A stretch of 64,000 nucleotides of DNA from an uncultured Candidatus Saccharibacteria bacterium (GTDB taxonomy: Bacteria > Patescibacteriota > Doudnabacteria > UBA920 > 2-01-FULL-46-14), in contig CAYHVH010000001.1 of assembly GCA_964360335.1 (NCBI GenBank), positions 23,426-87,425 on the forward strand. Reading direction: 5' to 3'. Under the pieces are notes generated by a model. The model saw only the letters and a program-made list of their open reading frames with translations. It was not told where the DNA came from and did no database searches. The position numbers and the translations under genes were made by a program. Each line of letters starts with the position of its first letter. The first letter of the stretch is position 1. This document shows positions 1,877 to 52,916 of this stretch, piece by piece.

Positions 1877-2008
1877 GAAACTTCCCTCCTCCCCAGGCGC
1901 CCGGCCTTCGTAGCCACTTCGGCGGAGTAGGCTGGGGAGGAGAAGGAGGAGAGGTCGAACTGTGGATCCTTGTATGCAACCTCTCTCCAGCTCTCCCCTC
2001 GCCAGGGG
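1872..2008. repeat. Family-A element, intergenic (murE start / ruvA stop), two units
   Basis: CCTCCTCCCCAGGCG...GGCTGGGGAGGAG...GGAGAGGTCGAAC and GCAACCTCTCTCCAGCTCTCCCCTCGCCAGGGGAGAGAG. Confidence 0.65.
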
Positions 2009-2021
2009 AGAGAGTTAAGCG

Positions 2022-2686: not shown

Positions 2687-2785
2687 GCCCTCTCCAGGCG
2701 TGGAGAGGGACTAAGGGAGAGGTCGCATTTGCGACATAATAAACGACCTCTCTTCCGGCCTCTCCCCACGCCTGGGGAGAGGAGA
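2687..2785. repeat. Family-A element, intergenic (ruvA / uvrB), two half-units; its 3' end GGAGAGGAGAAG lies at the Shine-Dalgarno position for uvrB
   Basis: CTCTCCAGGCGTGGAGAGGGACTAAGGGAGAGGTCGC ... CGACCTCTCTTCCGGCCTCTCCCCACGCCTGGGGAGAGGAGAAG, followed by the uvrB ATG at 2794. Confidence 0.65.
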
Positions 2786-25360: not shown

Positions 25361-26455
25361 TCAGATCTTGATCGGCATGACGATATAGAGGTAGTTGTCC
25401 CTCCCTGCCGGTACCAAGGCCGCAGGAGACGAAGAGTTGATGACTCTTAAAGAAACCTGCTCGTCTGGTAAATTATTCAGGCACTCCAGGAGATAGCGGT
25501 AGTTGAAAACTGCCGCATTTTTTTCGCCCGTTAATTCCCCGAACAGGCGAATTTCGCTCCCTCCCACCTGGACCGCTTGGGACTTGATTACCACCTGCTT
25601 CCCTGGCGGATTGAGTTCCAGCTCAATGTTGTTGGTGTCCCCGGCGAAAAGGCTTGCCGCCTTCAAAGCCTGTACAAATTCGCCCCGCTTGAGCTCTGCC
25701 TGGGTTGTGAAGTTTTGAGGGACTATCTGTTTGTAATCTGGATACTGGCCCTCGATCAGACGCGAAATAAGTTCAACCTCCTCGGTTCTCAAACAAATTT
25801 GCCCTTCCTTGAGAAAGACCTCGATTGTTCCCTCCCCCATGCTTCTACTTGCTTCATTGACGGCGCGGGTTGGGACAATCACCTGGCGGTTGCTACCCAC
25901 CTCTTCCCCAAGTGGGATTTTTACTTCTGCCAAGCGGTAGCGGTCGGTGGTAGCCAGGGTTAGCCCTTTCCCCTCAAAACTAAACAACACCCCAGAAATT
26001 TCCGGCTGGGTTTCGGAAAAGGCCGCGGCAAATCCTACCTCCCCAACTCCTTCCCGAAGCGCTTTCCCTGAGAGTTTGGTATAAACCCCGCCTTCCCCCC
26101 CGGGAATGAGGGGAAAGTCTTCTACCCCCAAGCCGTTGATATGAGTTTTGGCGTTTTCCCCTTCCAGCAACAGGTCGGTTTTTTCTGTGGAGATAGTGAG
26201 CTTTTCCGTTAGCAAATTAGCCACGAGTTCGTTGAGTAATTTCGCCGGTACCGTAAGCTCCCCGTCTTCTACTACTTTCCCCCCCACCCAAGTATTAACC
26301 GCCATCTCTAGATTTGTGGTGGTGAGTTTGAGGCGACCCTTCTCTGTGCGGAGCAAAATATTGTTGAGAATGGGTAGGGCGTTCCCTCCCCCAATAATCC
26401 GCGAGCAGATCTGTAAGCCAGCATTGAGGTTTTTTTTTGTACACTGCATTTTCAT
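25361..26455 (-). CDS. dnaN: DNA polymerase III beta sliding clamp
   Basis: 364 aa, three-domain clamp architecture, immediately downstream of dnaA. Confidence 0.9.
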   Translation of the reverse strand: MKMQCTKKNLNAGLQICSRIIGGGNALPILNNILLRTEKGRLKLTTTNLEMAVNTWVGGKVVEDGELTVPAKLLNELVANLLTEKLTISTEKTDLLLEGENAKTHINGLGVEDFPLIPGGEGGVYTKLSGKALREGVGEVGFAAAFSETQPEISGVLFSFEGKGLTLATTDRYRLAEVKIPLGEEVGSNRQVIVPTRAVNEASRSMGEGTIEVFLKEGQICLRTEEVELISRLIEGQYPDYKQIVPQNFTTQAELKRGEFVQALKAASLFAGDTNNIELELNPPGKQVVIKSQAVQVGGSEIRLFGELTGEKNAAVFNYRYLLECLNNLPDEQVSLRVINSSSPAALVPAGRDNYLYIVMPIKI

Positions 26456-26499
26456 AAAAGTGATTGTTTCTAAAGAAGAAGTTTTAGTAAGGAGTAATT

Positions 26500-26660
26500 A
26501 TAGTAATTGCTGGGGGAATGTGGGAAAGGGGGAGATTCTGCTGCTAGCGCCCGTCCCCAGTTCGCGGCCGGTGGGGAAGGTGGTGACAGGGGTGGGGAGA
26601 GATTGGGGGGGAAGGAAACAAGGACAGGATCTTTCCCCCAATCCCCCCACAGTTAATCCA
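26500..26660. repeat. G-run-rich palindromic spacer between dnaA and dnaN (GGGGA/TCCCC hairpins), possibly related to family A
   Basis: GATTGGGGGGGAAGG...CTTTCCCCCAATCCCCCC (roughly 13-bp stem), plus GTCCCCAG...GGTGGGGAAGG and GGGGTGGGGAGAG. Confidence 0.4.
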
Positions 26661-42462: not shown

Positions 42463-43632
42463 ATGAGCGAGACTTTGCAATCCATGAACGATTTGCTGGC
42501 CGCCACCGCGGCTGGTAAGCTCCGGATTTTACAGGAAGGCGACGTGATCAAAGGCCGCATTTTGAGCGTGGGTAAAAACGAGGTTTATGTGGATGTCGAA
42601 GGAGTCGGCATCGGCGTGGTGCGGGGCCGGGAGCTGTATGACGATGAACAAATTCTCTCCTCGCTGCAAGCCGGTAGTGAGGTTTACGCTTCGGTCATTG
42701 ATATTGAAAACAAAGAAGGCAATATCGAACTGTCATTCCGCAAAGCCGGCCAGGAACGGGTCTGGCAGGCGCTTCGGGAGAAGCTTTTGAATAAAGAAGT
42801 GGTCACGACCAAGATTTTAGAGGCGAATAAGGGCGGCCTGATGGTAAAAATCAACAACGTCCTCGGTTTTTTGCCGGTTTCCCAGCTAGCACCTTCGCAC
42901 TATCCCCGGGTGGAGGATGGGGACAAAAATAAAATTTTAAGCGTTTTGCGCAGCTTCGTCGGGCAAGATTTTCCGGTCCGGATTATTACGGCCGAGCCGC
43001 AGGGGGAAAAGTTGATTGTCTCGGAACGGGCGGTTATTGAGGAAGAGTTGCTGAAAAAGATCGGCAAGCTCACCGTCGGTTCAGTGGTGGAGGGAGCGGT
43101 CACGGGAGTCGTCGATTTCGGCGCGTTTGTGAAGTTTGATGACGAGCTGGAAGGCCTGGCTCATATTTCCGAGCTTGCGTGGCAGCGGATTGAGGATCCC
43201 AAAGACATCGTTAAAGTCGGGGATAAAGTCAAAGCGCAAATCATCGCCATTGAAAATGACCGGATCAGTCTCTCCCTGAAGCGGCTCCTCAAGGATCCGT
43301 GGGAAGATGCCGTAAAAAAGTACCAGATTGGGCAGGTCATTAAAGGCAAGGTTTTGAAACTTGCCCCCTTTGGCGCTTTTGTGGAGCTCGATCCGGACAT
43401 TCACGGGCTCGCCCACTTGGGGGAGCTCTCCGAGGAAAAAATTGCTGACCCGAGCGCCGTCTTGAAGGAAGGAGAAGAGCGAGAGTTCAAAATCATCTCC
43501 ATCGAGCCGCAGGAGCACCGCTTAGGCCTCTCGCTCAAGGCTTTAAAAAGCGGGGGCAAAACCCCGGAGTCGCCGGAGCCGGCAGCAGCCGAGGCCAGTC
43601 CCGCGCCGTCGTCAGCCGAAACACCGGTTTAG
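42463..43632 (+). CDS. rpsA: 30S ribosomal protein S1 (four S1 domains)
   Basis: Repeated S1 OB-fold domains (GxV.G.V..I...G.FV). Confidence 0.85.
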   Translation: MSETLQSMNDLLAATAAGKLRILQEGDVIKGRILSVGKNEVYVDVEGVGIGVVRGRELYDDEQILSSLQAGSEVYASVIDIENKEGNIELSFRKAGQERVWQALREKLLNKEVVTTKILEANKGGLMVKINNVLGFLPVSQLAPSHYPRVEDGDKNKILSVLRSFVGQDFPVRIITAEPQGEKLIVSERAVIEEELLKKIGKLTVGSVVEGAVTGVVDFGAFVKFDDELEGLAHISELAWQRIEDPKDIVKVGDKVKAQIIAIENDRISLSLKRLLKDPWEDAVKKYQIGQVIKGKVLKLAPFGAFVELDPDIHGLAHLGELSEEKIADPSAVLKEGEEREFKIISIEPQEHRLGLSLKALKSGGKTPESPEPAAAEASPAPSSAETPV

Positions 43633-43840
43633 GGTTTTAGTAACGAAATTTCGCGCGAGCTAATAAAGCTCCCCAGCCTGAAGGCTGGTATATTCCTTGA
43701 GCCTCTGGCTCTGCGGAATACGTCGCCGCATCGGCATTCGCCGATTCATTGCGGCTCCCGGAGCTGTGTTATCCCCTCCGCTTCGCTCCGGGCTTGGCTT
43801 CATCTCCGCGCTTGAAAGCGCGGAGTATTCGCCTAAGGGA

Positions 43841-43893
43841 TAATAAAAAAGCCCGAGAAGGGGTTTTCCGTTGCCGCCCTGCCTTCTCCGGGA
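43841..43893 (-). terminator. Intrinsic terminator of the minus-strand CBS gene
   Basis: On the minus strand: CCCGGAGAAGGCAGGGCGGCAACGGAAAACCCCTTCTCGGGC followed by TTTTTTATTAT. Confidence 0.5.
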
Positions 43894-43894
43894 T

Positions 43895-44572
43895 TTAGAG
43901 GATACGAATGCGAATGATTACCGCTAACGATATTATTATTCCAATGACCAGAAAAGCAATCAGAGCGAAGTACCAAAATCGCGCCCGAGCTTGGCTGACC
44001 ACCACGTATTTCTTTTCCACCTCCTCGATGAGTTTGGGAATTTCGGTTTCCTCAGTCAGAGACGGACGAGGTTTGATCGGCTCCAGTGGATTGGTAAGAG
44101 ATTTGAGGATGTCGTATTTGGAAACCACCCCGACTAAGGTTTTAAAGTCATCAACTACCGGCAGCAGATCTTCATGGCGAAGTAAAAAGGCCTCTGCCGC
44201 TTTTTCCAAGCTGGTATTGGATACCAGGTACAGCGGCTCGCGGTTCATCACGTCGGAGGCTTTGAGTTTGTACAGGGCTTTGAGTTTTTTGTCTACCGTC
44301 GTGAGGTCTTCTCCGTGGATCATGTGGAGATTAGCCAGCAGATTGATCGCGGTCGGCAAATAGATGCCTTTGGAATCCAGGAGTTCTTTCATGGTAATCA
44401 TTCCCCGTAATTTGCCATCTTTGTCCACTACCGGCACGCCGTTAAAATTTTTCTCGAGCATAGCCTTGGCCACGTCCAAAACATTGTCCTCGGCCTGGGC
44501 CGCCAGGATTTTCGTGGTCATAATCTCTTTGACTTGGATTTCCGAGAGACCTTTGGGCATTGCTAAGCACAT
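43895..44572 (-). CDS. CBS-pair domain protein with a C-terminal TM anchor
   Basis: Two CBS motifs and a C-terminal hydrophobic helix. Confidence 0.7.
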   Translation of the reverse strand: MCLAMPKGLSEIQVKEIMTTKILAAQAEDNVLDVAKAMLEKNFNGVPVVDKDGKLRGMITMKELLDSKGIYLPTAINLLANLHMIHGEDLTTVDKKLKALYKLKASDVMNREPLYLVSNTSLEKAAEAFLLRHEDLLPVVDDFKTLVGVVSKYDILKSLTNPLEPIKPRPSLTEETEIPKLIEEVEKKYVVVSQARARFWYFALIAFLVIGIIISLAVIIRIRIL

Positions 44573-44737
44573 TATATAGTGTTGCCCTCACCACCCGCAA
44601 ACTTTATAATTATCCTGCTGGCCTGGTAGCTCGTACCTTCGGTAGATGCCCCGCAGGGGCACAAGTGGCCCCGAAGAACAGCATAGCTCTGTCTACGGGG
44701 TAAATAAGGGAGCGGTCTGCTGCCCGCCACAGCCTGA

Positions 44738-44808
44738 GGCGTGATGGCCGAGTAGTTAGGCAGAGGTCTGCAAAACCTCTCACACGGGTGCAAATCCCGT
44801 TCACGCCT
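44738..44808 (+). tRNA. tRNA-Cys (GCA)
   Basis: GGCGTGA/TCACGCC acceptor, anticodon loop CTGCAAA, discriminator U. The D-arm and T-loop (TGCAAAT) are somewhat atypical. Confidence 0.6.
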
Positions 44809-44878
44809 GAGGCGATGGCAGGCGGGCAAAACCGCTTGACAACAGGTGCGATTCCCGTCCGGCCTTTTAGTGGAACGA

Positions 44879-44966
44879 GCCGAGGTGGTGAAACCGGCAG
44901 ACACTAGGGACTTAAAATCCCTTGGGGGAATACCCCGTGCGGGTTCGAATCCCGCCCTCGGCACCA
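44879..44966 (+). tRNA. tRNA-Leu (UAA), type II with a long variable arm; CCA encoded
   Basis: GCCGAGG...CCTCGGC acceptor, anticodon loop CTTAAAA, variable hairpin GGGGGAATACCCC, T-arm GCGGGTTCGAATCCCGC. Confidence 0.85.
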
Positions 44967-45053
44967 GATGAGAGTTCCCCAGAACCGGGTTTTTTTAGGA
45001 AATCCGTGACCCGAAAGGGATTGAGGATTTAGCCTCTGACGTATTATTTTTTT

Positions 45054-45383
45054 ATGTCAATTGCAATTACTTTTGAAGAATTTAAAAAATTAGACCTGCG
45101 TATCGCGCTTGTGGTTGAAGCGACTCCGGTGGAGGGCTCGGAAAAACTCGTAAAACTCAAAATCGACACCGGCGACGGCGAGCGGCTACTTGTGGCGGGC
45201 ATTGCGCAATATTATGCTCCCGAAGAATTGGTCGGCCGTCGCATTGTGCTGGTGGCAAACTTGGAACCGAAAATTTTCATGGGCGTTGAAAGCCAGGGGA
45301 TGTTGCTCGCGGCCGAAGGCCCCGAGGGGCCGGTGCTTTTAATGCCGGATCGCGAAGTTCCGCCCGGTTCCCGAATCCGCTAG
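45054..45383 (+). CDS. tRNA-binding domain protein (CsaA/Trbp111-like, Myf domain)
   Basis: LDLRIALVVEATPVEGSEKLVKLKIDTGDGERLLVAGIAQYY. Confidence 0.75.
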   Translation: MSIAITFEEFKKLDLRIALVVEATPVEGSEKLVKLKIDTGDGERLLVAGIAQYYAPEELVGRRIVLVANLEPKIFMGVESQGMLLAAEGPEGPVLLMPDREVPPGSRIR

Positions 45384-45393
45384 GCGCCACACT

Positions 45394-45422
45394 TGACGAA
45401 AAGTCCAAAATCAGGTAAGATA
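45394..45422 (+). promoter_or_regulatory. Sigma-70-like promoter TTGACG-N17-TAAGAT driving a ~170-nt structured leader that ends in a GCAGGTTTCGCCACCTG plus T6 terminator/attenuator
   Basis: Read directly. The leader contains a TCCCGACTTGTCGGGA hairpin and a CGCGTC...GACGCG helix. Confidence 0.5.
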
Positions 45423-45590
45423 GAGTGCTAACTAAATAATGTGAGCTGTGAAGCGCGTCGAATTGGTCACCTTCCCGACTTGTCGGGATAAGACGCGTGG
45501 AGCTTTAGGGTGAAACCGGCACTCGTATTTTGCAGAGCAGGTTTCGCCACCTGTTTTTTAGTTAGCGCAACAACCAAACAGGAGGCGAAG

Positions 45591-46145
45591 ATGTGGTGGA
45601 AAAAACCGCGGTGGTTTTTCACAGGGTTATACTTGGTATTCGTTGAGGTCTTTATTCACGGCCGGGATGTCCGCGAGGGGTATTCTAAAGATATTCTGTC
45701 CGGACTTTATAATCAGCGGGCTATTCTAGAACTTGCAGTTCGAGCATTAGCGGATGCTAGGCGCGTCGGCAAATGGCTTGCGGTCGTGCACATTGATCTT
45801 GATCACTTCAAAGCCTACAATGACCAGTTTGGTCATTTACGGGGCAACGAAGTGATTCGGCAGTTTGGTCGAATCTTGACTTCTGGCTTGCGGCCGACGG
45901 ATTGGGCTGGCAGATTTGGCGGAGACGAATTTCTGCTGATTCTCCCCGGCGCCGATCCTTATGAGGCCAGCTGTGTAGTACAGAGGCTTAAGCAACTTGG
46001 TCCTCAAATTCCCTTCAGCTTTGGGGTACACAGTGAGCTTGTGATGCGAGGAAGCCAAGTCACGCTCGAGCATTTTATCGAGCGGGCAGACCAAGAAATG
46101 TACGCTCATAAACGGTCCAAGCAACAATTCGCAGTCCAAGTGTAA
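45591..46145 (+). CDS. GGDEF-domain diguanylate cyclase (single N-terminal TM helix)
   Basis: RFGGDEFLLIL active-site motif. AGGAGG SD precedes the ATG at about 45591. Confidence 0.8.
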   Translation: MWWKKPRWFFTGLYLVFVEVFIHGRDVREGYSKDILSGLYNQRAILELAVRALADARRVGKWLAVVHIDLDHFKAYNDQFGHLRGNEVIRQFGRILTSGLRPTDWAGRFGGDEFLLILPGADPYEASCVVQRLKQLGPQIPFSFGVHSELVMRGSQVTLEHFIERADQEMYAHKRSKQQFAVQV

Positions 46146-46212
46146 GTGGTCTTCCGGCCGGAAAGGTGCAAACCTTTCCGGCCGCGTTTTTTTTCGATAT
46201 AATTGCAATACT

Positions 46213-48270
46213 ATGGCTGACCTTGTGAAACTCAAAGAACTCGCCAGGCTCGTTCGTTACTATATTCTGGTCTCGACCACGGCCGCGGGGTCCGGGCACC
46301 CAACATCTTCGCTGTCTGGCGTGGAACTGATGACGGCATTGATGTTTGGCGGCTATTTTCGCTTTGACTTGAATCGTCTGGGATACGCAAACAATGACCG
46401 GCTGATTTTCTCCAAAGGCCATGCCTCGCCCCTCTTCTATGCGCTGTGGGCAGCGGCTGGCGCGCTGACGGAAAAAGAGCTTTTGACTTTGCGCAAATTT
46501 GGCAGCCCTTTGGAGGGGCATCCTACCCCGGCATTTCCCTATACCGAAGCGGCGACAGGCTCTTTGGGACAAGGGTTGTCAATTGGCGTGGGCATGGCCC
46601 TTAATGCCAAGCTTGACCGGCTTCCCTATCGCACTTATGTGCTTTTGGGGGACAGTGAAATGGCCGAGGGCTCGCAATGGGAGGCGATTCAGCTCGCCGC
46701 GTACTATAAACTTGATAATTTGGTCGGCGTTCTCGATGTCAATCGTTTGGGTCAACGAGGGCAGACGATTTACGGGCATGATATTAAAGCTTATCAGAAA
46801 CGCATCGCGGCGTTCGGGTGGAAGACTATAGTCGTGAATGGGCATAATTTGAATGAGATTTTGAAAGCGTACAAACAGGCGACCCCCTCTTCATCTCCCC
46901 CTATCCCGTTTGACGGGACAGGGGGAGAAAAGAGAGGGGGTGGAAGGCCGGTGATGATCATTGCCAAAACCATTAAAGGTAAAGGAGTTTCATTTATCGA
47001 AAACAAAGAAGGCTGGCATGGGAAGGCGCTTTCCCCGGAGGATTTGAGGAAGGCACTACGAGAATTGGGGAAAGTCGACAAGAAGATGCGAGGAGAGATG
47101 GCAAAGCCGGAGAGAATTAGTAGACCGGAGACAGTAGATAGTAGATCGGAAAGCAAAGAAAAAATTAATTACAAAATCGGAGAAGAGGCGGCAACAAGGA
47201 AGGCTTACGGTAACGCCCTAGTCAGGATTTATCCGAAGTTTCCGAATATCGTAGTCCTCGACGCCGAGGTTTCCAATTCAACTTACGCGGAGATATTCAA
47301 GGAAAAATATCCGGACCGGTTTTTGGAGATGTTTGTGGCGGAGCAGAATATGGTGGGTGCGGCTCTTGGTCTTTCGCGGCGCGGCAAGATCCCGTTTGTT
47401 TCGACCTTTGCCGCGTTCCTGACGCGCGCTTTTGACCAAATCCGAATGAGCCAGTATTCGGCCGCCAACATCAAGTTTGTGGGCTCGCACGCCGGGGTGT
47501 CCATCGGCGAGGACGGGCCGTCGCAGATGGGCCTCGAGGATTTGGCAATGTTTCGCAGTATTTTAGGAAGCGTGGTTTTGTATCCTTCGGATGCGGTTTC
47601 AACCGATAAGCTTGTGGAAGCGGCAGCTAAGCACAAAGGCATTGTCTATATCAGAACAACGCGAATGGAAACCCCGGTGCTTTATTCCCCGGGGCAGGAG
47701 TTCAAAATCGGCGGGAGTAAAGTTTTGCGCCATAGCCGGAAAGACGTGGCGACAGTGCTGGCGGCCGGGATAACATTGCATGAAGCGTTGGCCGCTTATG
47801 AAGAACTCAAGAAGCAAGGGGTTTTGATTCGGGTGATTGACTTGTACAGCATCAAACCGATTGATAAAAAGACATTGACGCAGGCTGCCAAAGAAACGGG
47901 AGCGATAATCACGGTCGAGGACCATTATCCCGAGGGCGGGATTGGGGAAGCGATTAGAAGCGCTCTTTCTGACCTCCCTCCCCAAAGCATGGGGAGGGAT
48001 AAAGGGAGAGGTTTTCCGCCAGCCCGCCCCGCTTCGCTTGGCGAGGCCGGGGAGGCGGATCCGCCTTGGGCAGAGAAACTCCCTGGTAAAACCGACCTCT
48101 CTCCTTCTCTCCCCATCACCTGGGGAGAGGGTAGGATTATCTCTTTAGCGGTGCGCAAAATGCCGCGAAGCGGCAAACCGCAGGAGCTTTTGGATTATGA
48201 AGAGATATCGCGCGATGCTATTATTAAGGAAGTAAAGAGAATTGTTTCTAAATCGTCACCTCGAATTTAA
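46213..48270 (+). CDS. tkt: Transketolase (full length) carrying 2-3 in-frame repeat insertions
   Basis: ThDP-binding motifs (GHPTPAF..., LLGDSEMAEGSQWEA), pyrimidine-binding and C-terminal domains. 685 aa. Confidence 0.9.
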   Translation: MADLVKLKELARLVRYYILVSTTAAGSGHPTSSLSGVELMTALMFGGYFRFDLNRLGYANNDRLIFSKGHASPLFYALWAAAGALTEKELLTLRKFGSPLEGHPTPAFPYTEAATGSLGQGLSIGVGMALNAKLDRLPYRTYVLLGDSEMAEGSQWEAIQLAAYYKLDNLVGVLDVNRLGQRGQTIYGHDIKAYQKRIAAFGWKTIVVNGHNLNEILKAYKQATPSSSPPIPFDGTGGEKRGGGRPVMIIAKTIKGKGVSFIENKEGWHGKALSPEDLRKALRELGKVDKKMRGEMAKPERISRPETVDSRSESKEKINYKIGEEAATRKAYGNALVRIYPKFPNIVVLDAEVSNSTYAEIFKEKYPDRFLEMFVAEQNMVGAALGLSRRGKIPFVSTFAAFLTRAFDQIRMSQYSAANIKFVGSHAGVSIGEDGPSQMGLEDLAMFRSILGSVVLYPSDAVSTDKLVEAAAKHKGIVYIRTTRMETPVLYSPGQEFKIGGSKVLRHSRKDVATVLAAGITLHEALAAYEELKKQGVLIRVIDLYSIKPIDKKTLTQAAKETGAIITVEDHYPEGGIGEAIRSALSDLPPQSMGRDKGRGFPPARPASLGEAGEADPPWAEKLPGKTDLSPSLPITWGEGRIISLAVRKMPRSGKPQELLDYEEISRDAIIKEVKRIVSKSSPRI
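46880..46945. repeat. Family-A-type nested palindrome in frame in tkt
   Basis: CGACCCCCTCTTCATCTCCCCCTATCCCGTTTGACGGGACAGGGGGAGAAAAGAGAGGGGGTGG. Encodes TPSSSPPIPFDGTGGEKRGGG. Confidence 0.65.
47970..48140. repeat. Composite family-A insertion (three palindromic units, ~171 bp) in frame in the tkt C-terminal domain
   Basis: TGACCTCCCTCCCCAAAGCATGGGGAGGGATAAAGGGAGAGG ... GGCGGATCCGCC ... CCGACCTCTCTCCTTCTCTCCCCATCACCTGGGGAGAGGG. Encodes a 57-aa loop. Confidence 0.7.
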
Positions 48271-48298
48271 TTCGGGAACCAGGATTAAAACTTCTGGA

Positions 48299-48324
48299 TT
48301 CCCCGATTAAATCGGGGAATGACA
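48299..48324. repeat. Family-B repeat, copy 2 (partial: TTCCCCGATTAAATCGGGGAATGACA) upstream of glpX
   Basis: Shares the ...CGGGGAATGACA terminus with copies at 47-132 and 49281-49325. Confidence 0.5.
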
Positions 48325-48328
48325 AAGA

Positions 48329-49279
48329 ATGCAAATGGATCGAAATTTGGCTTTAGAATTTGTGCGCGTCACCGAAGCGGCGGCAATTGCCGCCTCCTCC
48401 TGGATTGGCCGCGGCGACAAAAACGCCGCTGATCAGGCCGCGGTTGACGAGATGCGCGCGCGGTTCAACCAGATTGATTTTGCCGGTACGATCGTTATCG
48501 GCGAGGGAGCCAAGGACGAAGCTCCGGAGCTTTACACCGGCGAGAAAGTCGGCACCGGCAAAGGCCCGGAAATGGATCTGGCCGTTGATCCTCTGGAAGC
48601 CACGGACAGTGTGGCCCACGGCCGCTACAACGCGATTTCCGTGATTGTCGCCGGGCCCAAAGGGTCACTCCTTTCTGCGCCGGATACTTATATGAATAAA
48701 CTGGCCGTAGGCAAAGCCGCTGCTAAAGTCGTGGATTTGGATTTTCCCGTAAAACAGAATATTGAGCGCGTGGCCAAGTCCTTGGGCAAAGACATTGGGG
48801 AAATTACGGTCGTGGTTTTGGACCGCGAGCGGCATGAGGGGTTGATCAAGGAAATTCGCGCTGCCGGCGCGCGGGTGCGCACCATCACTGACGGCGACGT
48901 GGCGGGCGCTATCGCTCCGTGCCTGCCCGAGTCGGGGATCGATATGCTTTTGGGAATTGGCGCCTCGACAGAAGCAGTGCTCGCCGCCGCGGCCATGAAA
49001 ATCCTGGGCGGCGAGCTTTTCTGCCGGTTTGCGCCTAAGAATGAGAAAGATCAGAAAGCAATTTTGGAGGCCGGGATCAAAGATCTAAATAAAGTCTACT
49101 CTGCTGAGGACTTGGCAAAGGGCAAGCAGTTAACCTTTACTGCCACGGGCGTGATTGACGGGCCGCTTTTAGAGGGAGTGCGGTTTGCGAAGCACCGCAT
49201 CATCACCCATTCGGTCGTGATGCGCGGGTCGTCTGGTACAATACGGTACATCACCACTCATCATCATACTACTAAGTAA
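48329..49279 (+). CDS. glpX: Fructose-1,6-bisphosphatase class II (GlpX)
   Basis: 316 aa. GlpX N-terminal signature (RVTEAAAIA..GRGDKNAAD.AAV). Confidence 0.85.
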   Translation: MQMDRNLALEFVRVTEAAAIAASSWIGRGDKNAADQAAVDEMRARFNQIDFAGTIVIGEGAKDEAPELYTGEKVGTGKGPEMDLAVDPLEATDSVAHGRYNAISVIVAGPKGSLLSAPDTYMNKLAVGKAAAKVVDLDFPVKQNIERVAKSLGKDIGEITVVVLDRERHEGLIKEIRAAGARVRTITDGDVAGAIAPCLPESGIDMLLGIGASTEAVLAAAAMKILGGELFCRFAPKNEKDQKAILEAGIKDLNKVYSAEDLAKGKQLTFTATGVIDGPLLEGVRFAKHRIITHSVVMRGSSGTIRYITTHHHTTK

Positions 49280-49280
49280 T

Positions 49281-49325
49281 TGTCATTCCGGCCAAAGTTT
49301 ACCCCGCACTTGATGCGGAATGACA
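49281..49325. repeat. Family-B repeat, copy 3 (TGTCATTCCGGCCAAAGTTTACCCCGCACTTGATGCGGAATGACA)
   Basis: Near-identical to the 5' half of copy 1, plus the terminal inverted repeat. Confidence 0.6.
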
Positions 49326-49369
49326 GGCAGGTACAAGTAAGTATTAATTACGTAATTAAATAAGTATTT

Positions 49370-50284
49370 ATGAAAAACTTAGGCTATAGTAAACCGCTTT
49401 TCATCCTTGCTTTTGATCACCGCTCGTCCTTTTTTAAGATGTTCGGCTACAAAGAGCCGCTGACCGCGGAGCAGGCTAGAGAAATTAGCGAGGCTAAGTG
49501 GCTGGTCTATGAGGGGTTTAAACAGGCCGTGGCCAAAGACTTTCCGCCGAAAGAAAACGCGGGAGTGTTGGTGGATGAACAGTTTGGGAAAAAGGTACAC
49601 CGTGAGGCTCAACCCGCCGGTTATTTGACGCTTTTGACTCAAGAGAAAAGCGGGCAAGATGAGTTTGACTTTGAGTATGGCGAACAGTTTGCCGAGCATA
49701 TTGAAAATCTTAAACCCAGATTTGCCAAGGTCCTGATTCGCTACAACCCGGAAAGTGATAAAGAGATGAATTTAAGGCAGCGAGAAAGGCTTAAGATTTT
49801 GAGTGGCTGGTGCCATGAGAAAGGTTACAAGTTTTTGATAGAGCCACTCATTCCGGCGACAGAGCAACAGCTTGCCGGGGTCGGAGGGGACCAGGCGCGT
49901 TATGATAACGAACTAAGGCCCGGGCTAATGGTCAAAATGATAGCCGAGCTGCAGGCAGGTGGAGTGGAGCCGGATATCTGGAAGATTGAAGGCCTTGAGG
50001 ATCCGAAACATTACGAAGAGGTGGTGCGCCAAGCCCGGACCGGCGGCCGGGGAGGAGTCTCGGCCGTGGTTTTGGGTCGCGGCGCGGATGCCGCGCAGGT
50101 GGAGAAATGGCTCAAGGCCGGAGCGAAAGTGAAAGGGATTATCGGGTTTGCCATCGGCCGGACGATTTTCTGGGAACCACTCTTGTCGTGGAAAGAGGGG
50201 AAGACGAGTCGAGAGGAAACCGTCAGGAAGATCGCGGAGAATTATAAACATTTTTACAAGGTGTTTGTTAGTAGCACAAAATAG
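49370..50284 (+). CDS. Class I aldolase of the DeoC/LacD superfamily (DUF2090-type; putative fructose-bisphosphate aldolase)
   Basis: 304 aa. FILAFDHRSSF N-terminal motif typical of LacD/DUF2090 TIM-barrel aldolases. Sits between glpX and tal. Confidence 0.6.
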   Translation: MKNLGYSKPLFILAFDHRSSFFKMFGYKEPLTAEQAREISEAKWLVYEGFKQAVAKDFPPKENAGVLVDEQFGKKVHREAQPAGYLTLLTQEKSGQDEFDFEYGEQFAEHIENLKPRFAKVLIRYNPESDKEMNLRQRERLKILSGWCHEKGYKFLIEPLIPATEQQLAGVGGDQARYDNELRPGLMVKMIAELQAGGVEPDIWKIEGLEDPKHYEEVVRQARTGGRGGVSAVVLGRGADAAQVEKWLKAGAKVKGIIGFAIGRTIFWEPLLSWKEGKTSREETVRKIAENYKHFYKVFVSSTK

Positions 50285-50297
50285 TCTGAACCAGAAG

Positions 50298-50921
50298 TTG
50301 ATAGAGAATATTCACAAGTGTTTGCGTACGGTGGTTTCCCAATTTTATTACCGTCCATTTTTGTTTTTTAACGAAATCGGTTTTCATACTTACTGCTACG
50401 CAGTTTTCTATCGCAACCCCGTTTTCGCTAAACTTTTTACAACCCGTGACGGCAAAAACACCAACCTTATCCACCCTGAGTACGGTTCAATAAAAACTAA
50501 AATCGGCGGGAAGGGCAGGGCTTGGTATGATTTAGTTATCCTTAATCCCCGGTTCGTACAAGACAACGATCTTGAAAGAGTCGCCAACAATTATGGAACA
50601 GCGACGAGTTATAAACCGGATGACCTAATGGCGGTTCTAGAATTTAAGTACCTTAGATCTTCTTCTAAAGAATACGTTAGGCAACTGCAAAAAGATTATC
50701 ATTCCTTATCTAACGCTGTTGAAGCACTGAACAAATATATGATTGTTTTTGCCGATGTTAAAAGTCCTTTTGATTATTTTTCGGGTATGCAGTGGGACGA
50801 CCACACAAAACTCGTTTATACGGTTGTTGATTTTAGTCAAATTGGACGAAAGCAGATCAAAGTGCTTATTAAGCCTGATAATTTCTTAAAATTACCGGGA
50901 CAGTGGCTGGCGACGGTCTAA
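50298..50921 (+). CDS. Hypothetical protein in an AT-rich segment; start uncertain (TTG/GTG candidates, or internal ATG near 50628); possible PD-ExK-like motif
   Basis: Marked drop in GC. ...KPDDLMAVLEFKYL... is a PD-(D/E)xK-like pattern. Otherwise no recognisable family. Confidence 0.3.
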   Translation: MIENIHKCLRTVVSQFYYRPFLFFNEIGFHTYCYAVFYRNPVFAKLFTTRDGKNTNLIHPEYGSIKTKIGGKGRAWYDLVILNPRFVQDNDLERVANNYGTATSYKPDDLMAVLEFKYLRSSSKEYVRQLQKDYHSLSNAVEALNKYMIVFADVKSPFDYFSGMQWDDHTKLVYTVVDFSQIGRKQIKVLIKPDNFLKLPGQWLATV

Positions 50922-50930
50922 AAATGCCAT

Positions 50931-51827
50931 ATGAGGCCCTCAAATTTAAAAACCCGCATCTTTCTTGACTCTGGGGATCCGAACGAAACGCGTGAAGTCA
51001 TAAAGTTTCTCGGGTTTTTGGACGGTCAGACGACTAATCCCAGCTTAATTGCCAAGAACCCGGAAACGACCGGCAAGAAATTTTCCCAAAAAGAGATTTT
51101 GGAATTTTATAAAAAAGTCGTGGTTGAGGTTTCCGCTCTGATCCCCGCCGGTTCCGTATCAGTTGAGGTTTACGCTGACCCTTCGACAAGCTCAGGGGAT
51201 ATGTTAGAACAAGGTCGAGATTTTTTTTCTTGGATTCCAAACGCACACATCAAATTTCCGACAACCAAAGAGGGCCTGAAGGCCGCTGAAATTGCCGTTA
51301 AAGAAGGCATGCGCGTCAATTTGACTTTGTGCTTTTCCCAGGAGCAGGCGGCGGCCGTGTACGCGGCAACGAGGGGAGCAAAAAAAGGGCAGGTCTTTGT
51401 TTCGCCGTTTGTCGGGCGGCTGGATGATCGGGGGGAGAACGGGATGCAGCTCGTTGAGAATATTATCAAAATGTATCGGGCGGGAGACGGGCATGTGGAG
51501 GTGCTGACCGCGAGCGTACGGAATCTCAATCATTTGCAGTACGCAATTCAGCTCGGTTCCGACATCCTGACCGCGCTGTTGAAGGTTTTGAAGGAGTGGG
51601 CCGACTCCAATTTCCCTCCCCAGGCGTGGAGAGCCCCCTTCTCTATCCCTCCCCAGGCGAGGGGAGGGATTAAGGGAGAGGTCGAAACGGCAAAGGAGTT
51701 GAAGCCAATACCCTACCGCGAGGTTTCTCTTGACAATCCCTGGCAGGACTACGACATTCGTCATGAGCTGACCGACGTCGGCATTGAAAAGTTTGCCGCG
51801 GATTGGAACGCGCTTATCAAGCCATAA
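50931..51827 (+). CDS. tal: Transaldolase / fructose-6-phosphate aldolase family (TalC/MipB-type) with an in-frame repeat insertion
   Basis: DSGDPNE..., FPTTKEGLKAAE..., NLTLCFS motifs. 298 aa. Confidence 0.85.
   Translation: MRPSNLKTRIFLDSGDPNETREVIKFLGFLDGQTTNPSLIAKNPETTGKKFSQKEILEFYKKVVVEVSALIPAGSVSVEVYADPSTSSGDMLEQGRDFFSWIPNAHIKFPTTKEGLKAAEIAVKEGMRVNLTLCFSQEQAAAVYAATRGAKKGQVFVSPFVGRLDDRGENGMQLVENIIKMYRAGDGHVEVLTASVRNLNHLQYAIQLGSDILTALLKVLKEWADSNFPPQAWRAPFSIPPQARGGIKGEVETAKELKPIPYREVSLDNPWQDYDIRHELTDVGIEKFAADWNALIKP
51611..51685. repeat. Family-A element in frame in tal
   Basis: ...CCCTCCCCAGGCGTGGAGAG...CCCTCCCCAGGCGAGGGGAGGGATTAAGGGAGAGGTCGAA. Encodes FPPQAWRAPFSIPPQARGGIKGEVE. Confidence 0.7.
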
Positions 51828-51857: not shown

Positions 51858-52916
51858 ATGATGCGCGACGCGATTCTCAGTTTTCCGAAGCAGTTCCGGT
51901 TCGTCCCGAAGGTGGAAAACGGGCCGGTGAAAAAATACAAAAAATACATTGTCGCCGGCATGGGCGGTTCGCACCTCGCCGCGGATATTTTGAAGACTTT
52001 AAAACCGGAATTGGATATCATCGTACATAGTGATTACGGATTGCCGGCTTTTCTCGACCCCTCCCGGCCTTCGGCCACCCTCCCCTCGTCAGGAGAGGGG
52101 GGAAGTAAGGAAAAACGTCTGGAGAGGCGAATTTCGCAAACTTTGCTCATCGCGAGTTCCTATTCGGGTAATACTGAAGAGACACTGGATGCATTTGAAC
52201 AAGCAAGAAGTAAAGGAATCGCAGTGGCGGCGATTGCGGTTGGCGGCAAGCTTCTGGAACTGGCCAAGCAGTATCAAACTCCTTATGTTCAGATGCCGGA
52301 TACGGGGATTCAGCCCCGTTCGGCCCTGGGCTTCAATTTGCGAGCGCTTCTGAAAATCATGAAGCAAGGCGAGCTCCTCAGGCAGAGCCGGGAGCTGGCT
52401 AAAAGTTTGCAGCCTAAGAATATCGAGGAAAAAGGCCGAGCGCTCGCGCAAAAGCTAAAGAGTCGGATGCCGGTAATTTACGCGTCGCAAAAAAACTATT
52501 CGCTCGCCTATAACTGGAAAATCAAATTTAACGAGACGGGCAAAATCCCGACCTTTTACAATATTTTTCCGGAACTGAATCACAACGAGATGTCCGGATT
52601 TTCCGCCGCAGGCGGACCCGCCTCTGGCGGGGACGCACCCGATCCTAAAAGTTTGTCAGAAAAATTTTATTTTCTCTTTTTGCATGACAGCAGCGATCAC
52701 CCGCAAATCCAAAAGCGAATGGACGCAACCGCGAAACTTTATCGGGAGCGCGGTTTGCCAGTGGAAATTTTACCGATTCAGGGGGAGAACGCCATGCACA
52801 AAATCTTCTCCTCACTGGTCCTTGCCGACTGGGCGGCACTTTACACGGCCGAGGGATATGGGTTTGAGGCCGAACGGGTGCCGATGGTGGAGGAGTTCAA
52901 GAAACTGATTAAGTGA
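51858..52916 (+). CDS. Bifunctional phosphoglucose/phosphomannose isomerase (archaeal-type SIS-domain PGI/PMI) with an in-frame repeat insertion
   Basis: Two SIS domains (VAGMGGSHLAADIL...; ...LIASSYSGNTEETL). 352 aa. Confidence 0.7.
   Translation: MMRDAILSFPKQFRFVPKVENGPVKKYKKYIVAGMGGSHLAADILKTLKPELDIIVHSDYGLPAFLDPSRPSATLPSSGEGGSKEKRLERRISQTLLIASSYSGNTEETLDAFEQARSKGIAVAAIAVGGKLLELAKQYQTPYVQMPDTGIQPRSALGFNLRALLKIMKQGELLRQSRELAKSLQPKNIEEKGRALAQKLKSRMPVIYASQKNYSLAYNWKIKFNETGKIPTFYNIFPELNHNEMSGFSAAGGPASGGDAPDPKSLSEKFYFLFLHDSSDHPQIQKRMDATAKLYRERGLPVEILPIQGENAMHKIFSSLVLADWAALYTAEGYGFEAERVPMVEEFKKLIK
52054..52110. repeat. Family-A-like palindrome in frame in the PGI/PMI gene
   Basis: CTCGACCCCTCCCGGCCTTCGGCCACCCTCCCCTCGTCAGGAGAGGGGGGAAG. 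Encodes DPSRPSATLPSSGEGGSKE. Confidence 0.6.

What the first reader, a model, noticed from the sequence alone, without database searches (positions are those of the whole stretch)
46213..48270. Transketolase carries a composite 171-bp triple-palindrome insert plus a second nested-palindrome insert
The region 47970-48140 holds three successive hairpin units: CCTCCCCAAAGCATGGGGAGG, GGCGGATCCGCC-centred, and CTCTCCCCATCACCTGGGGAGAG. Together they encode 57 residues (DLPPQSMGRDKGRGFPPARPASLGEAGEADPPWAEKLPGKTDLSPSLPITWGEGRII) inside the C-terminal domain. The copy at 46880-46945 adds TPSSSPPIPFDGTGGEKRGGG before the PSLL...KT strand. This suggests elements can insert next to or into existing copies, piling up in tandem.
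Basis: seen in the sequence. Interest (0 to 1): 0.65.

Follow-up and report, generated by a model that had tools for sequence, protein, structure and literature searches.

The report
Palindromic repeats translated inside transketolase gene
Two short, GC-rich, hairpin-forming repeat elements sit in frame inside the transketolase gene of a groundwater Candidatus Doudnabacteria genome and probably add floppy surface loops to the enzyme; this resembles the Rickettsia palindromic elements, but the repeat family appears to be undescribed.

Summary
ORF 46213-48270 is an intact transketolase carrying two palindromic in-frame inserts, 46882-46944 and 47971-48141. Both are absent from about 95% of 120 homologues and from a syntenic relative. 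A second, independent assembly reproduces both inserts exactly. In an AlphaFold model both are low-confidence loops between a helix and a strand.

They belong to a dispersed repeat family. About 13 A-type units and 2 B-type units occur in this 64-kb window, mostly in frame inside housekeeping genes. The 171-bp insert is not three elements piled in tandem. It aligns end to end with the family's roughly 95-130-bp inverted doublet, with about 60 nt of unique GC-rich hairpins added in the spacer. Growth by nesting is supported, because other copies differ by extra hairpins placed in their loops.

The B-type scaffold recurs at 50 metagenome loci with 29 different apical mini-hairpins, and all five apical base pairs covary.

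I found no transposase, no Rfam family and no paper describing these sequences.

Best reading: REP/RPE-like non-autonomous palindromic elements that are tolerated and translated in surface loops. I class this as a new variant of a known kind, of moderate interest.

The parts
46213..48270 (+). Transketolase ORF (685 aa; family norm is 610-614 aa), intact and carrying both inserts
   Evidence: Pfam Transketolase_N, Transket_pyr and Transketolase_C; the C-domain match breaks at aa 587. The model matches human transketolase with TM 0.90-0.92 and 45-46% identity. The window sequence keeps every residue invariant among 120 homologues.
46882..46944 (+). Insert 1: 21 codons (TPSSSPPIPFDGTGGEKRGGG). 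A B-type three-tier nested palindrome spans 46882-46941.
   Evidence: Absent from 113 of 120 homologues and from the syntenic relative L123. pLDDT is below 50 for residues 227-242, between helix 213-222 and strand 247-252.
46882..46890 (+). Insert 1 outer stem, 5' arm ACCCCCTCT. It pairs with AGAGGGGGT at 46933-46941.
   Evidence: Fold. The same arms occur in the FemAB copy at 6111-6158.
46894..46928 (+). Insert 1 middle stem (TCTCCCCCT / ACAGGGGGAGA) enclosing the apical module
   Evidence: (I2). This is the scaffold CTCCCCCTAT...ACAGGGGGAGAAA found at 50 metagenome loci.
46905..46917 (+). Insert 1 apical mini-hairpin CCCGT-TTG-ACGGG, the variable module
   Evidence: The P0005 orthologue has TTCGC-AGA-GCGAA at the same place. 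There are 29 distinct apical modules, and all 5 apical pairs covary.
47971..48141 (+). Insert 2: 57 codons. An A-type inverted doublet with an expanded spacer.
   Evidence: Absent from 114 of 120 homologues and from L123. pLDDT is below 50 for residues 589-639, between helix 577-584 and strand 642-645.
47975..47999 (+). Left-unit hairpin TCCCTCCCC-AAAGCA-TGGGGAGGGA
   Evidence: (I13); nhmmer E = 8e-11 against the unit model.
48004..48015 (+). Left-unit tail GGGAGAGGTTTT (family consensus GGGAGAGGTCG). It pairs with 48088-48104.
48016..48087 (+). Unique GC-rich core. TCCGCC...GGCGGA encloses a further hairpin, followed by the GGCGGATCCGCC palindrome (48054-48065).
   Evidence: No other copy in the window or in fetched loci.
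48088..48104 (+). Right-unit tail AAAACCGACCTCTCTCC (family consensus CGACCTCTCC)
48107..48129 (+). Right-unit hairpin CTCTCCCC-ATCACC-TGGGGAGAG
   Evidence: nhmmer E = 1.4e-9.
2688..2782 (+). Reference full-length A-type doublet (intergenic, just upstream of uvrB) with an 18-nt spacer
   Evidence: (I1).
1885..2014 (+). A-type doublet (between the Mur ligase and ruvA genes) with 33 extra nt nested in the left hairpin loop
6111..6158 (.). Second B-type copy in the window, in frame in a FemAB-family gene and lacking the apical module

Best explanation
Both inserts are copies of a family of short, non-autonomous, GC-rich palindromic repeats. These repeats have colonised this Candidatus Doudnabacteria genome, including the coding sequence of housekeeping genes.

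Insert 1 is a B-type element, a 60-nt three-tier hairpin. Insert 2 is an A-type head-to-head doublet, organised like a REP dimer, REPIN or MITE, whose spacer has acquired about 60 nt of further GC-rich mini-hairpins.

What is shown:
- The elements lie in frame with no stop codon.
- They replace short helix-to-strand loops that sit on the surface of the transketolase fold.
- They are absent from most orthologues.
- The same units occur in unrelated genes and in intergenic DNA.
- The hairpin structure, but not the sequence, of the apical module is conserved across copies.

What is inferred:
- The elements are transcribed and translated into disordered Pro/Ser/Gly/Glu/Arg-rich loops that the enzyme tolerates. 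Only in-frame, stop-free copies in permissive loops survive selection.
- They move or are copied as single-stranded hairpins through a trans-acting activity not encoded nearby. This could be an HUH-type tyrosine transposase, as proposed for REPs, or replication-associated template switching.
- The single-stranded loops of resident hairpins are preferred landing sites, which would explain the nested growth.
For: Real insertions:
- Alignments A1 and A2 and the length counts at the two sites.
- Empty sites for both TK inserts, and for the transaldolase and PGI inserts, in the syntenic relative L123.
- Gaps at the same two places against solved human transketolase.

Not an artefact:
- The independent assembly L001 is identical across both inserts despite 16 SNPs elsewhere.
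- L125, a third assembly, reproduces the Mur ligase gene and its insert.

A repeat family:
- Motif enrichment of 11 against 0.12 expected.
- nhmmer finds 11 strong units plus weaker ones.
- Hosts are Mur ligase, FemAB (3-4 copies), PolA, RuvC, transaldolase and PGI.
- The doublet alignment A3 includes a Saccharibacteria copy.

Surface loops: pLDDT is below 50 only at 227-242 and 589-639 plus three short segments. Each insert lies between a helix and a strand, and the fold matches human TK.

Translated rather than removed: all 11-13 genic copies in the window keep the host frame. With no constraint on length, the chance of this is about (1/3)^11 (my calculation).

Structure under constraint:
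- The B-type scaffold occurs at 50 metagenome loci with 29 apical variants, nearly all of them mini-hairpins.
- 5 of 5 apical pairs change on both sides, 97.8% of cells are paired, and 0 of 500 shuffles reach the observed covariation score.
- 104 of 129 GTDB motif hits have the complementary upstream arm, against 18% in the control.

Other hosts: the same element lies in frame in a class-I aminoacyl-tRNA synthetase, GT4 glycosyltransferases and a CCA-adding-type enzyme on other contigs.

Precedent:
- Intragenic REPs and RPEs encode 20-82 aa, are often dimers, and the CGTC class has no dedicated transposase (PMC3733652).
- RPEs insert in frame (PMC10969869).
Against: - No transposase was found. 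Pfam annotation of about 50 window genes shows none. There is none in 7.5 kb beyond the left end. No protein family recurs next to 119 element-bearing loci.
- No target-site duplication or precise boundary can be defined. The nearest empty site is only 71% identical at the nucleotide level.
- Mobility itself is inferred from distribution. No presence/absence polymorphism was seen within a population.
- Translation is inferred. There are no RNA or peptide data.
- The core of insert 2 is unique, so 'nested element' is not proven for it.
- The orientation bias in the window (6 of 6 single units read hairpin then GGAGAGGTCG in the coding sense) does not hold in other CPR loci, where the split is 2 against 3.
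Confidence: 0.75

Rival explanations
1. Serial pile-up: three independent elements inserted next to each other in tandem at site 2.
For: Three separable hairpin modules exist. Nested or adjacent growth is seen in other copies.
Against: The two outer modules are in inverted orientation with 12-17 nt of extra complementarity. They align end to end with the canonical doublet seen three more times, including in another CPR lineage. The centre has no second copy.
Confidence: 0.12
2. The segments are intervening sequences removed after transcription or bypassed by the ribosome, and so do not reach the protein. This would be intron-like, similar to bulge-helix-bulge splicing or gene-60-type bypassing.
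For: The RNA hairpins are very stable (-94 kcal/mol for 47966-48142). CPR bacteria are known, from my own knowledge, for intervening sequences in rRNA genes.
Against: Every genic copy keeps the reading frame and lacks stop codons, which removal or bypassing would not require. There is no Rfam intron or ribozyme match. At 63 and 171 nt the inserts are far too small for group I or II introns or for inteins.
Confidence: 0.05
3. The inserts are host-beneficial loop extensions, selected for a protein-level role such as interaction surfaces, solubility or charge. Their palindromic nature would then be incidental.
For: Sites 1 and 2 carry inserts in several related lineages: P0001, P0005, P0007 and P0116. 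The gene remains intact.
Against: The same nucleotide units occur in unrelated proteins, in both orientations and several frames, and in intergenic DNA. Covariation preserves base pairing, not the peptide. The segments are predicted disordered. The closest relatives function without them.
Confidence: 0.05
4. Local de novo palindrome formation by replication template switching or fold-back synthesis, with no transposition involved.
For: The apical modules are perfect mini-hairpins with unrelated sequences. Intrastrand templated repair tends to perfect palindromes (established knowledge). No transposase and no target-site duplication were found.
Against: This cannot explain identical 25-40-nt scaffolds at unrelated loci and in different CPR lineages. 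Examples are ACCCCCTCTTCATCTCCCCCTATCC shared with L081, and the right unit differing at only one position between window 1885-2014 and Saccharibacteria L025 (my count on the aligned sequences).
Confidence: 0.08
5. Assembly or sequencing artefact, meaning a collapsed or chimeric hairpin region.
For: Short-read metagenome assemblies at low coverage (cov 4-6) can mis-join repeats.
Against: Separate assemblies give the identical sequence. Unrelated metagenomes show palindromic inserts at the same two loops in orthologues. The reading frame is preserved.
Confidence: 0.02

Closest known systems
Rickettsia palindromic elements (RPE-1 to RPE-10)
   Same: Short palindromic repeats inserted in frame into unrelated housekeeping genes of a small, gene-dense genome. 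They encode extra peptide segments compatible with the protein fold, and copies also occur between genes (PMC10969869; PMC3733652).
   Different: The sequences are unrelated: GC-rich polypyrimidine/polypurine arms here, in a different phylum (Ca. Doudnabacteria). The architecture is modular and nested, with a variable, covarying apical hairpin. The A-type tail motif is found in many phyla.
REP elements of the GTAG and CGTC super-families, and their head-to-head dimers (REPINs/BIMEs)
   Same: A hairpin of about 8 bp with a 5-nt loop. Predominantly head-to-head dimers able to fold into a larger hairpin. Intragenic copies where dimers encode 20-30 aa and clusters 43-82 aa, several of them in replication and repair genes. 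The CGTC class has no dedicated transposase (PMC3733652). In this window PolA and RuvC are hosts, and doublets abut uvrB and ruvA.
   Different: There is no GTAG or CGTC tag next to the stem. The conserved flank is CGACCTCTCC / GGAGAGGTCG, separated from the stem by 2-5 nt. The stems lack the A/T first pairs of CGTC REPs. Most copies here are intragenic rather than extragenic.
Bacterial MITEs (for example Correia, ERIC, RU-1/2/3)
   Same: Non-autonomous, 50-200 bp, with terminal inverted repeats. They are occasionally fused in frame with host ORFs (PMC10969869).
   Different: No target-site duplication can be recognised and no parent insertion sequence with matching ends was found.
Small dispersed repeats (SDR) of Nostoc and related cyanobacteria
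   Same: Very small hairpin-forming repeats that are found inserted within copies of themselves, with compensatory changes supporting a shared secondary structure. This comparison rests on my own recollection of Elhai et al. 2008 and was not retrieved here.
   Different: SDRs are 21-27 nt, were reported only from cyanobacteria, and were not described as in-frame inserts in housekeeping proteins.

Membership tests
Rickettsia palindromic elements (RPE) | Palindromic repeat inserted in frame in protein-coding genes, adding a peptide segment | tested here: met
Rickettsia palindromic elements (RPE) | Inserted peptide lies at the protein surface and is compatible with the fold | tested here: met
   Both inserts are low-pLDDT loops between a helix and a strand, while the rest of the model matches human TK at TM 0.9. 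This rests on a prediction, not an experiment.
Rickettsia palindromic elements (RPE) | Sequence homology to one of the RPE families of Rickettsia | not tested
The GC-rich composition (62%) and the CPR host make homology unlikely, so I treat this as an analogue, not a member.
REP super-families (GTAG / CGTC; Di Nocera 2013) | Short stem-loop (stem 5-13 bp, loop 2-20 nt) present in many dispersed copies | tested here: met
   A-type stem of 7-9 bp with a 5-6-nt loop. There are 11 strong units in 64 kb.
REP super-families (GTAG / CGTC; Di Nocera 2013) | Unpaired GTAG or CGTC tetranucleotide directly at one end of the stem | tested here: not met
   The flank is CGACCTCTCC / GGAGAGGTCG, set 2-5 nt away from the stem. 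No GTAG or CGTC tag is present (definition from PMC3733652).
REP super-families (GTAG / CGTC; Di Nocera 2013) | Predominantly head-to-head dimers that can fold into a larger hairpin | tested here: met
   Doublets at 2688-2782, 1885-2014 and 47971-48141, and in L025.
REPIN / REPtron | Association with a RAYT (HUH Y1 transposase) gene flanked by the repeats | tested here: inconclusive
   None found in the window, in the 7.5 kb beyond it, or in about 0.8 Mb around 119 element-bearing loci.
MITE | Terminal inverted repeats and a size of 50-500 bp | tested here: met
MITE | Target-site duplication, and a cognate autonomous insertion sequence with the same ends | tested here: inconclusive
   No direct repeat is visible at the element ends and no parent insertion sequence was found. 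The exact boundaries cannot be fixed without a near-identical empty site.
Intein or self-splicing intron | Conserved splicing motifs or a ribozyme core, and adequate size | tested here: not met
   The inserts are 21 and 57 codons. No Rfam family reaches its threshold, and Pfam shows only transketolase domains.
Transketolase (host gene) | N-terminal ThDP-binding, pyrimidine-binding and C-terminal domains, with family-invariant residues retained | tested here: met

The most novel reading that the evidence does not exclude
The two inserts may be members of an undescribed class of structured hairpin mobile elements that is widespread in Candidate Phyla Radiation genomes. Its A-type tail motif also occurs in Chloroflexota, Bacteroidota, Cyanobacteria, Armatimonadota and other phyla. 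On this reading the elements have no linked transposase, preferentially persist inside coding sequence, and grow by nesting new mini-hairpins into the loops of resident copies. The covarying apical stem would be the structure recognised by an unknown trans-acting machinery. Such elements would be a significant source of the loop insertions and disordered segments that set CPR proteins apart from their homologues.
Probability: 0.3. Interest if true: 0.8.

Novelty: new variant of a known kind. Interest (0 to 1): 0.55.

Why it matters
Candidate Phyla Radiation genomes are small and almost fully coding, so a selfish repeat has few places to land except inside genes. This locus shows how such repeats can persist there. 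They are free of stop codons, keep the reading frame, and sit in loops that tolerate extra residues.

If the family is as general as the metagenome and GTDB hits suggest, three consequences follow. It would explain many unexplained insertions in CPR proteins. It would mislead gene callers, alignments and structure predictions. It would also provide a natural map of permissive insertion sites in core enzymes such as transketolase.

The covarying apical hairpin and the absence of any linked transposase pose a concrete, testable question about how REP-like elements are mobilised.

Tried and rejected
- Rfam, at gathering thresholds on the whole window and in permissive mode on 46700-48300: only tRNAs and sub-threshold generic hairpin (miRNA) models.
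- Literature search by sequence strings and by topic: nothing describes these units.
The single hit was a thymidylate-kinase-like protein and therefore spurious.
- Extending the contig: the right-end protein is not on record. The left end gave 7.5 kb with no transposase.
- Viral contigs: only 3 motif hits, about chance level.
- Orientation rule relative to the coding sense: 6 of 6 in the window but 2 against 3 in other CPR loci, so I dropped it.
- 'Stop-free by design': 63% of element frames are open against 48% for random window segments. This is too weak to use as evidence.
- A C-type family defined by TCCGCC...GGCGGA: 2 hits against 0.39 expected, not significant.
- Copies of the insert 2 core elsewhere: none.
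- tblastx of CPR loci against the window for taxonomy: uninformative. Taxonomy came from RpoB instead.
- Cluster-member lookup for organism names: none returned.
- Orthology among metagenome B-type loci, to look for in-place apical turnover: they are different loci.
Full report
**What is there.** ORF 46213-48270 (+) encodes a 685-aa transketolase with the three Pfam domains. The C-terminal domain match stops abruptly at residue 587. The protein belongs to the short, human-type transketolases. It shows 45-46% identity and TM 0.90-0.92 to human TK structures. The 120 best homologues are typically 610-614 aa long.

**Position of the inserts.** Alignment with 16 and then 119 homologues shows that the extra length sits at two points.
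- Site 1 lies between AYKQA and RPVMIIAKT. It has 12 residues in 113 of 120 sequences and 28 in the window.
- Site 2 lies between GGIGEAIRSALS and IISLAVRK. It has 12 residues in 114 of 120 sequences and 62 in the window.

In nucleotides the inserts are 46882-46944 (21 codons) and 47971-48141 (57 codons). Each replaces about 5-7 ancestral loop residues, so the net gains are +16 and +50 aa. The phrase 'PSLL...KT strand' is a misreading of RPVMIIAKT.

**More than chance, and not an artefact.** As single-stranded DNA, 46878-46948 folds into a three-tier hairpin at -25.6 kcal/mol (z = -7.5). Region 47966-48142 folds into a four-way structure at -48.9 kcal/mol (z = -4.9). None of 200 shuffles does as well in either case. 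As RNA the larger region reaches -94 kcal/mol.

The exact 685-aa protein is also encoded on an independently assembled ENA contig from Hainich groundwater (well H51, 0.1-µm fraction). That contig matches window 43213-51270 with 16 SNPs, yet is identical through both inserts. A third assembly reproduces the Mur ligase gene and its insert. Orthologues from unrelated metagenomes (P0001 from Rifle groundwater, P0005, P0007) carry palindromic inserts at the same two loops.

A syntenic relative, L123 (GCA_041493695.1), shares the gene order RuvC...GyrA...TK-glpX-DUF2090-TAL-PGI-RpoB. It has empty sites for both TK inserts and also for inserts in transaldolase and PGI. It contains no A-type unit in 21.9 kb.

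**Organism.** RpoB from the window is 85-86% identical to Candidatus Doudnabacteria MAG proteins. It is found exactly on a 134,858-bp NCBI/ENA contig. The host is therefore a CPR (Patescibacteria) bacterium.

**The repeat family.** CTCCCC-N(2-14)-GGGGAG occurs 11 times in the window against 0.12 expected. An nhmmer profile of the unit finds 11 strong and several weaker copies.

The A-type unit is an 8-bp hairpin (CCCTCCCC-AGGCG-TGGGGAGGG) followed by ATTAA-GGGAGAGGTCG. Two units head to head, with an 18-20-nt spacer, form a doublet of roughly 95-130 bp. This is seen intergenically at 2688-2782 and 1885-2014, and also in a Saccharibacteria MAG (L025).

The B-type unit is ACCCCCTCT-n-CTCCCCC-loop-GGGGGAG-n-AGAGGGGGT. 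It occurs at TK 46882-46941 and FemAB 6111-6158, against 0 expected by chance.

Apart from two intergenic doublets and a G/C-rich hairpin in the dnaA-dnaN spacer, the copies lie in frame inside a Mur ligase, a FemAB-family gene (3-4 copies), PolA, RuvC, transaldolase, PGI (two inserts) and transketolase.

**What the 171-bp insert is.** Alignment A3 shows that insert 2 matches the canonical doublet from end to end.
- The left unit is hairpin 47975-47999 plus tail 48004-48015.
- The right unit is tail 48088-48104 plus hairpin 48107-48129.
- The two tails pair with each other in the predicted fold.
- The only difference is about 60 extra nt of GC-rich hairpins in the spacer (core 48016-48087, including GGCGGATCCGCC). 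This core has no other copy in the window or in any fetched locus.

So the 'three successive hairpins' are one inverted doublet with an expanded centre, not a tandem pile-up.

**Evidence for nesting.** Growth by nesting is nevertheless well supported elsewhere.
- The 1885-2014 doublet carries 33 extra nt inside the left hairpin loop, right after AGGCG.
- Similar loop expansions occur in the Mur ligase copy and in Saccharibacteria and Doudnabacteria loci.
- B-type copies exist with and without an apical mini-hairpin.

**Structure conservation.** A metagenome scan used the B-type middle stem with an unconstrained 9-25-nt centre. It returned 50 loci with 29 different centres, almost all of them perfect 4-6-bp mini-hairpins.

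In a gap-free alignment of 13 distinct copies, all five apical pairs change on both sides. 97.8% of cells are paired, and 0 of 500 shuffles reach the observed covariation score. Slid registers drop to 52-65% paired. These copies sit at different loci.

At TK site 1, the window and P0005 share the scaffold but have different apical stems: CCCGT/ACGGG against TTCGC/GCGAA. Nucleotide identity between these two genes is 68% overall but 87-90% around insert 1. That could reflect constraint on the palindrome or recombination. I did not resolve which.

**Distribution.** Of 129 usable hits, 104 have the complementary arm upstream, although the pattern did not require it. The control figure is 18%.

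The genomes come from Chloroflexota (one MAG has dozens of copies, some in frame in a Lon protease), Saccharibacteria, Doudnabacteria, Bacteroidota, Armatimonadota, Cyanobacteria, Bipolaricaulota and others. The remaining 25 or so hits, in Streptomyces and similar genomes, look like chance matches. My rough estimate for chance hits in 596 Gb is of the order of 20.

B-type copies on other contigs lie inside a class-I aminoacyl-tRNA synthetase, GT4 glycosyltransferases and a CCA-adding-type enzyme. Viral contigs gave only 3 hits.

**Effect on the protein.** In the AlphaFold model (mean pLDDT 78.9, pTM 0.81) the segments with pLDDT below 50 are 227-242 and 589-639, which are the two inserts, plus three short segments. 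Each insert connects a confidently modelled helix to a strand. Solved human TK has short loops at these positions. The window sequence retains every residue that is invariant among the 120 homologues.

All genic copies in the window preserve the frame and lack stops. Removal at the RNA level, or ribosomal bypassing, would not require this. I therefore infer that the inserts are translated into disordered Pro/Ser/Gly/Glu/Arg-rich surface loops that are tolerated rather than functional.

**Mechanism.** What is shown is a dispersed family with a conserved hairpin structure, head-to-head dimers, nested variants, and presence/absence between related lineages.

What is inferred is mobility as a single-stranded hairpin through a trans-acting enzyme, or through replication template switching. 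Loops of resident hairpins would be the preferred targets.

I found no transposase in the window, in 7.5 kb beyond it, or recurrently near 119 other loci. No target-site duplication is visible. The within-window orientation bias (6 of 6) is not upheld in other CPR loci.

**Comparison with known systems.** The behaviour matches the Rickettsia palindromic elements, which insert in frame into housekeeping genes (PMC10969869). It also matches the intragenic REPs described by Di Nocera et al. (PMC3733652):
- dimers predominate;
- dimers encode 20-30 aa and clusters 43-82 aa;
- many hosts are replication and repair genes;
- the CGTC class has no dedicated transposase.

The defining GTAG or CGTC tag is absent here. 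The composition and host are unlike RPEs. Rfam has no matching family, and text searches for the sequences found nothing relevant.

I therefore file this as a new variant of a known kind: REP/RPE-like intragenic palindromic elements. Its distinctive features are the CPR host, the modular nested architecture with a covarying apical module, and a tail motif shared across phyla.

**Verdict.**
- Observation: confirmed.
The inserts are composite and nested, but not piled in tandem.
- Interest: moderate (0.55). The general phenomenon has been known since the RPE work. The family, its structural constraint, its apparent lack of a transposase and its prevalence in CPR proteins are worth a dedicated census.

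Noticed in passing
window 5178-6410 (-), inserts at about 5558-5606, 5632-5697, 5981-6030 and 6111-6158: A single FemAB-family gene carries three to four separate in-frame palindromic inserts: two A-type units, one GC-rich hairpin and one B-type unit. This is the densest host in the window.
   Followed up: partly
window 52058-52123 and 52596-52640 (PGI gene 51858-52916): The PGI gene has two in-frame inserts that are absent from the L123 orthologue. The second consists of two adjacent mini-hairpins, TCCGCC-GCA-GGCGGA and CCCGCC-TCT-GGCGGG. Its start, TTTTCCGCC, matches the start of the core of TK insert 2.
   Followed up: partly
window 2688-2782, upstream of uvrB (ATG at 2794): The intergenic doublet ends 12 nt before the uvrB start codon. 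Its purine-rich right end (GGGGAGAGGAGAAG) sits where a Shine-Dalgarno sequence would be expected, so the element may supply or mask the ribosome-binding site.
   Followed up: no
window 26456-26652 (between dnaA 26653-28233 and dnaN 25361-26455, both on the - strand): The dnaA-dnaN spacer is a usual place for a replication origin. It holds a long G-rich/C-rich hairpin (about 26587-26651; the spacer folds at -69.5 kcal/mol as RNA). The hairpin resembles the repeat family only weakly.
   Followed up: no
window 48364-48487 (5' part of the glpX gene, 48329-49279): Of the 16 SNPs between the window and the independent assembly L001, 14 cluster in 124 nt of glpX. This suggests a recombination tract or a strain-variable patch. 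The single SNP in transketolase (47586) is synonymous.
   Followed up: no
window 46816-46965 compared with L002 (P0005 transketolase): Nucleotide identity between the two transketolase genes is 68% overall but 87-90% in the 60-nt windows around insert 1, including about 40 nt of host flank. This may reflect recombinational spread of the element together with its flanks, or simply constraint. It remains unresolved.
   Followed up: partly
L124 6799-6846 (P0007 transketolase, site 2): A more distant orthologue carries a single A-type unit (GACCTCTCCCCTTATCCCTCCCCAGGCCTGGGGAGGG) that starts at the same codon (GAC CTC) as the window's insert 2. Closer relatives have empty sites. This suggests either a hot spot or a preferred GACCTC-like target.
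   Followed up: partly
window 47118-47150 (transketolase inter-domain linker): A 12-nt direct repeat spaced 21 nt apart (TAGTAGACCGGA / TAGTAGATCGGA) lies in the variable, low-confidence linker (residues about 303-313). It may be a small in-frame duplication unrelated to the palindromes.
   Followed up: no
L017 (Chloroflexota MAG LAG bin19), and L048, L053, L062, L093, L118: This Chloroflexota genome carries very many copies of the hairpin + GGGGGAGAGGTCG unit, often in tandem arrays spaced 45-60 nt apart. These include in-frame copies inside a Lon protease (DLSPDPSPTKGGEI... repeated).
   Followed up: partly
L134, L137, L138, L148, L153, L155, L160, L169 (several labelled human gut metagenome contigs): The B-type middle stem CTCCCCCTAT...ACAGGGGGAGAAA, with a 17-nt apical hairpin (ATTTTGCTGCGCAAAAC), recurs with identical 16-nt flanks on both sides on eight contigs, several of them labelled human gut metagenomes. 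These flanks differ from the groundwater copies.
   Followed up: no
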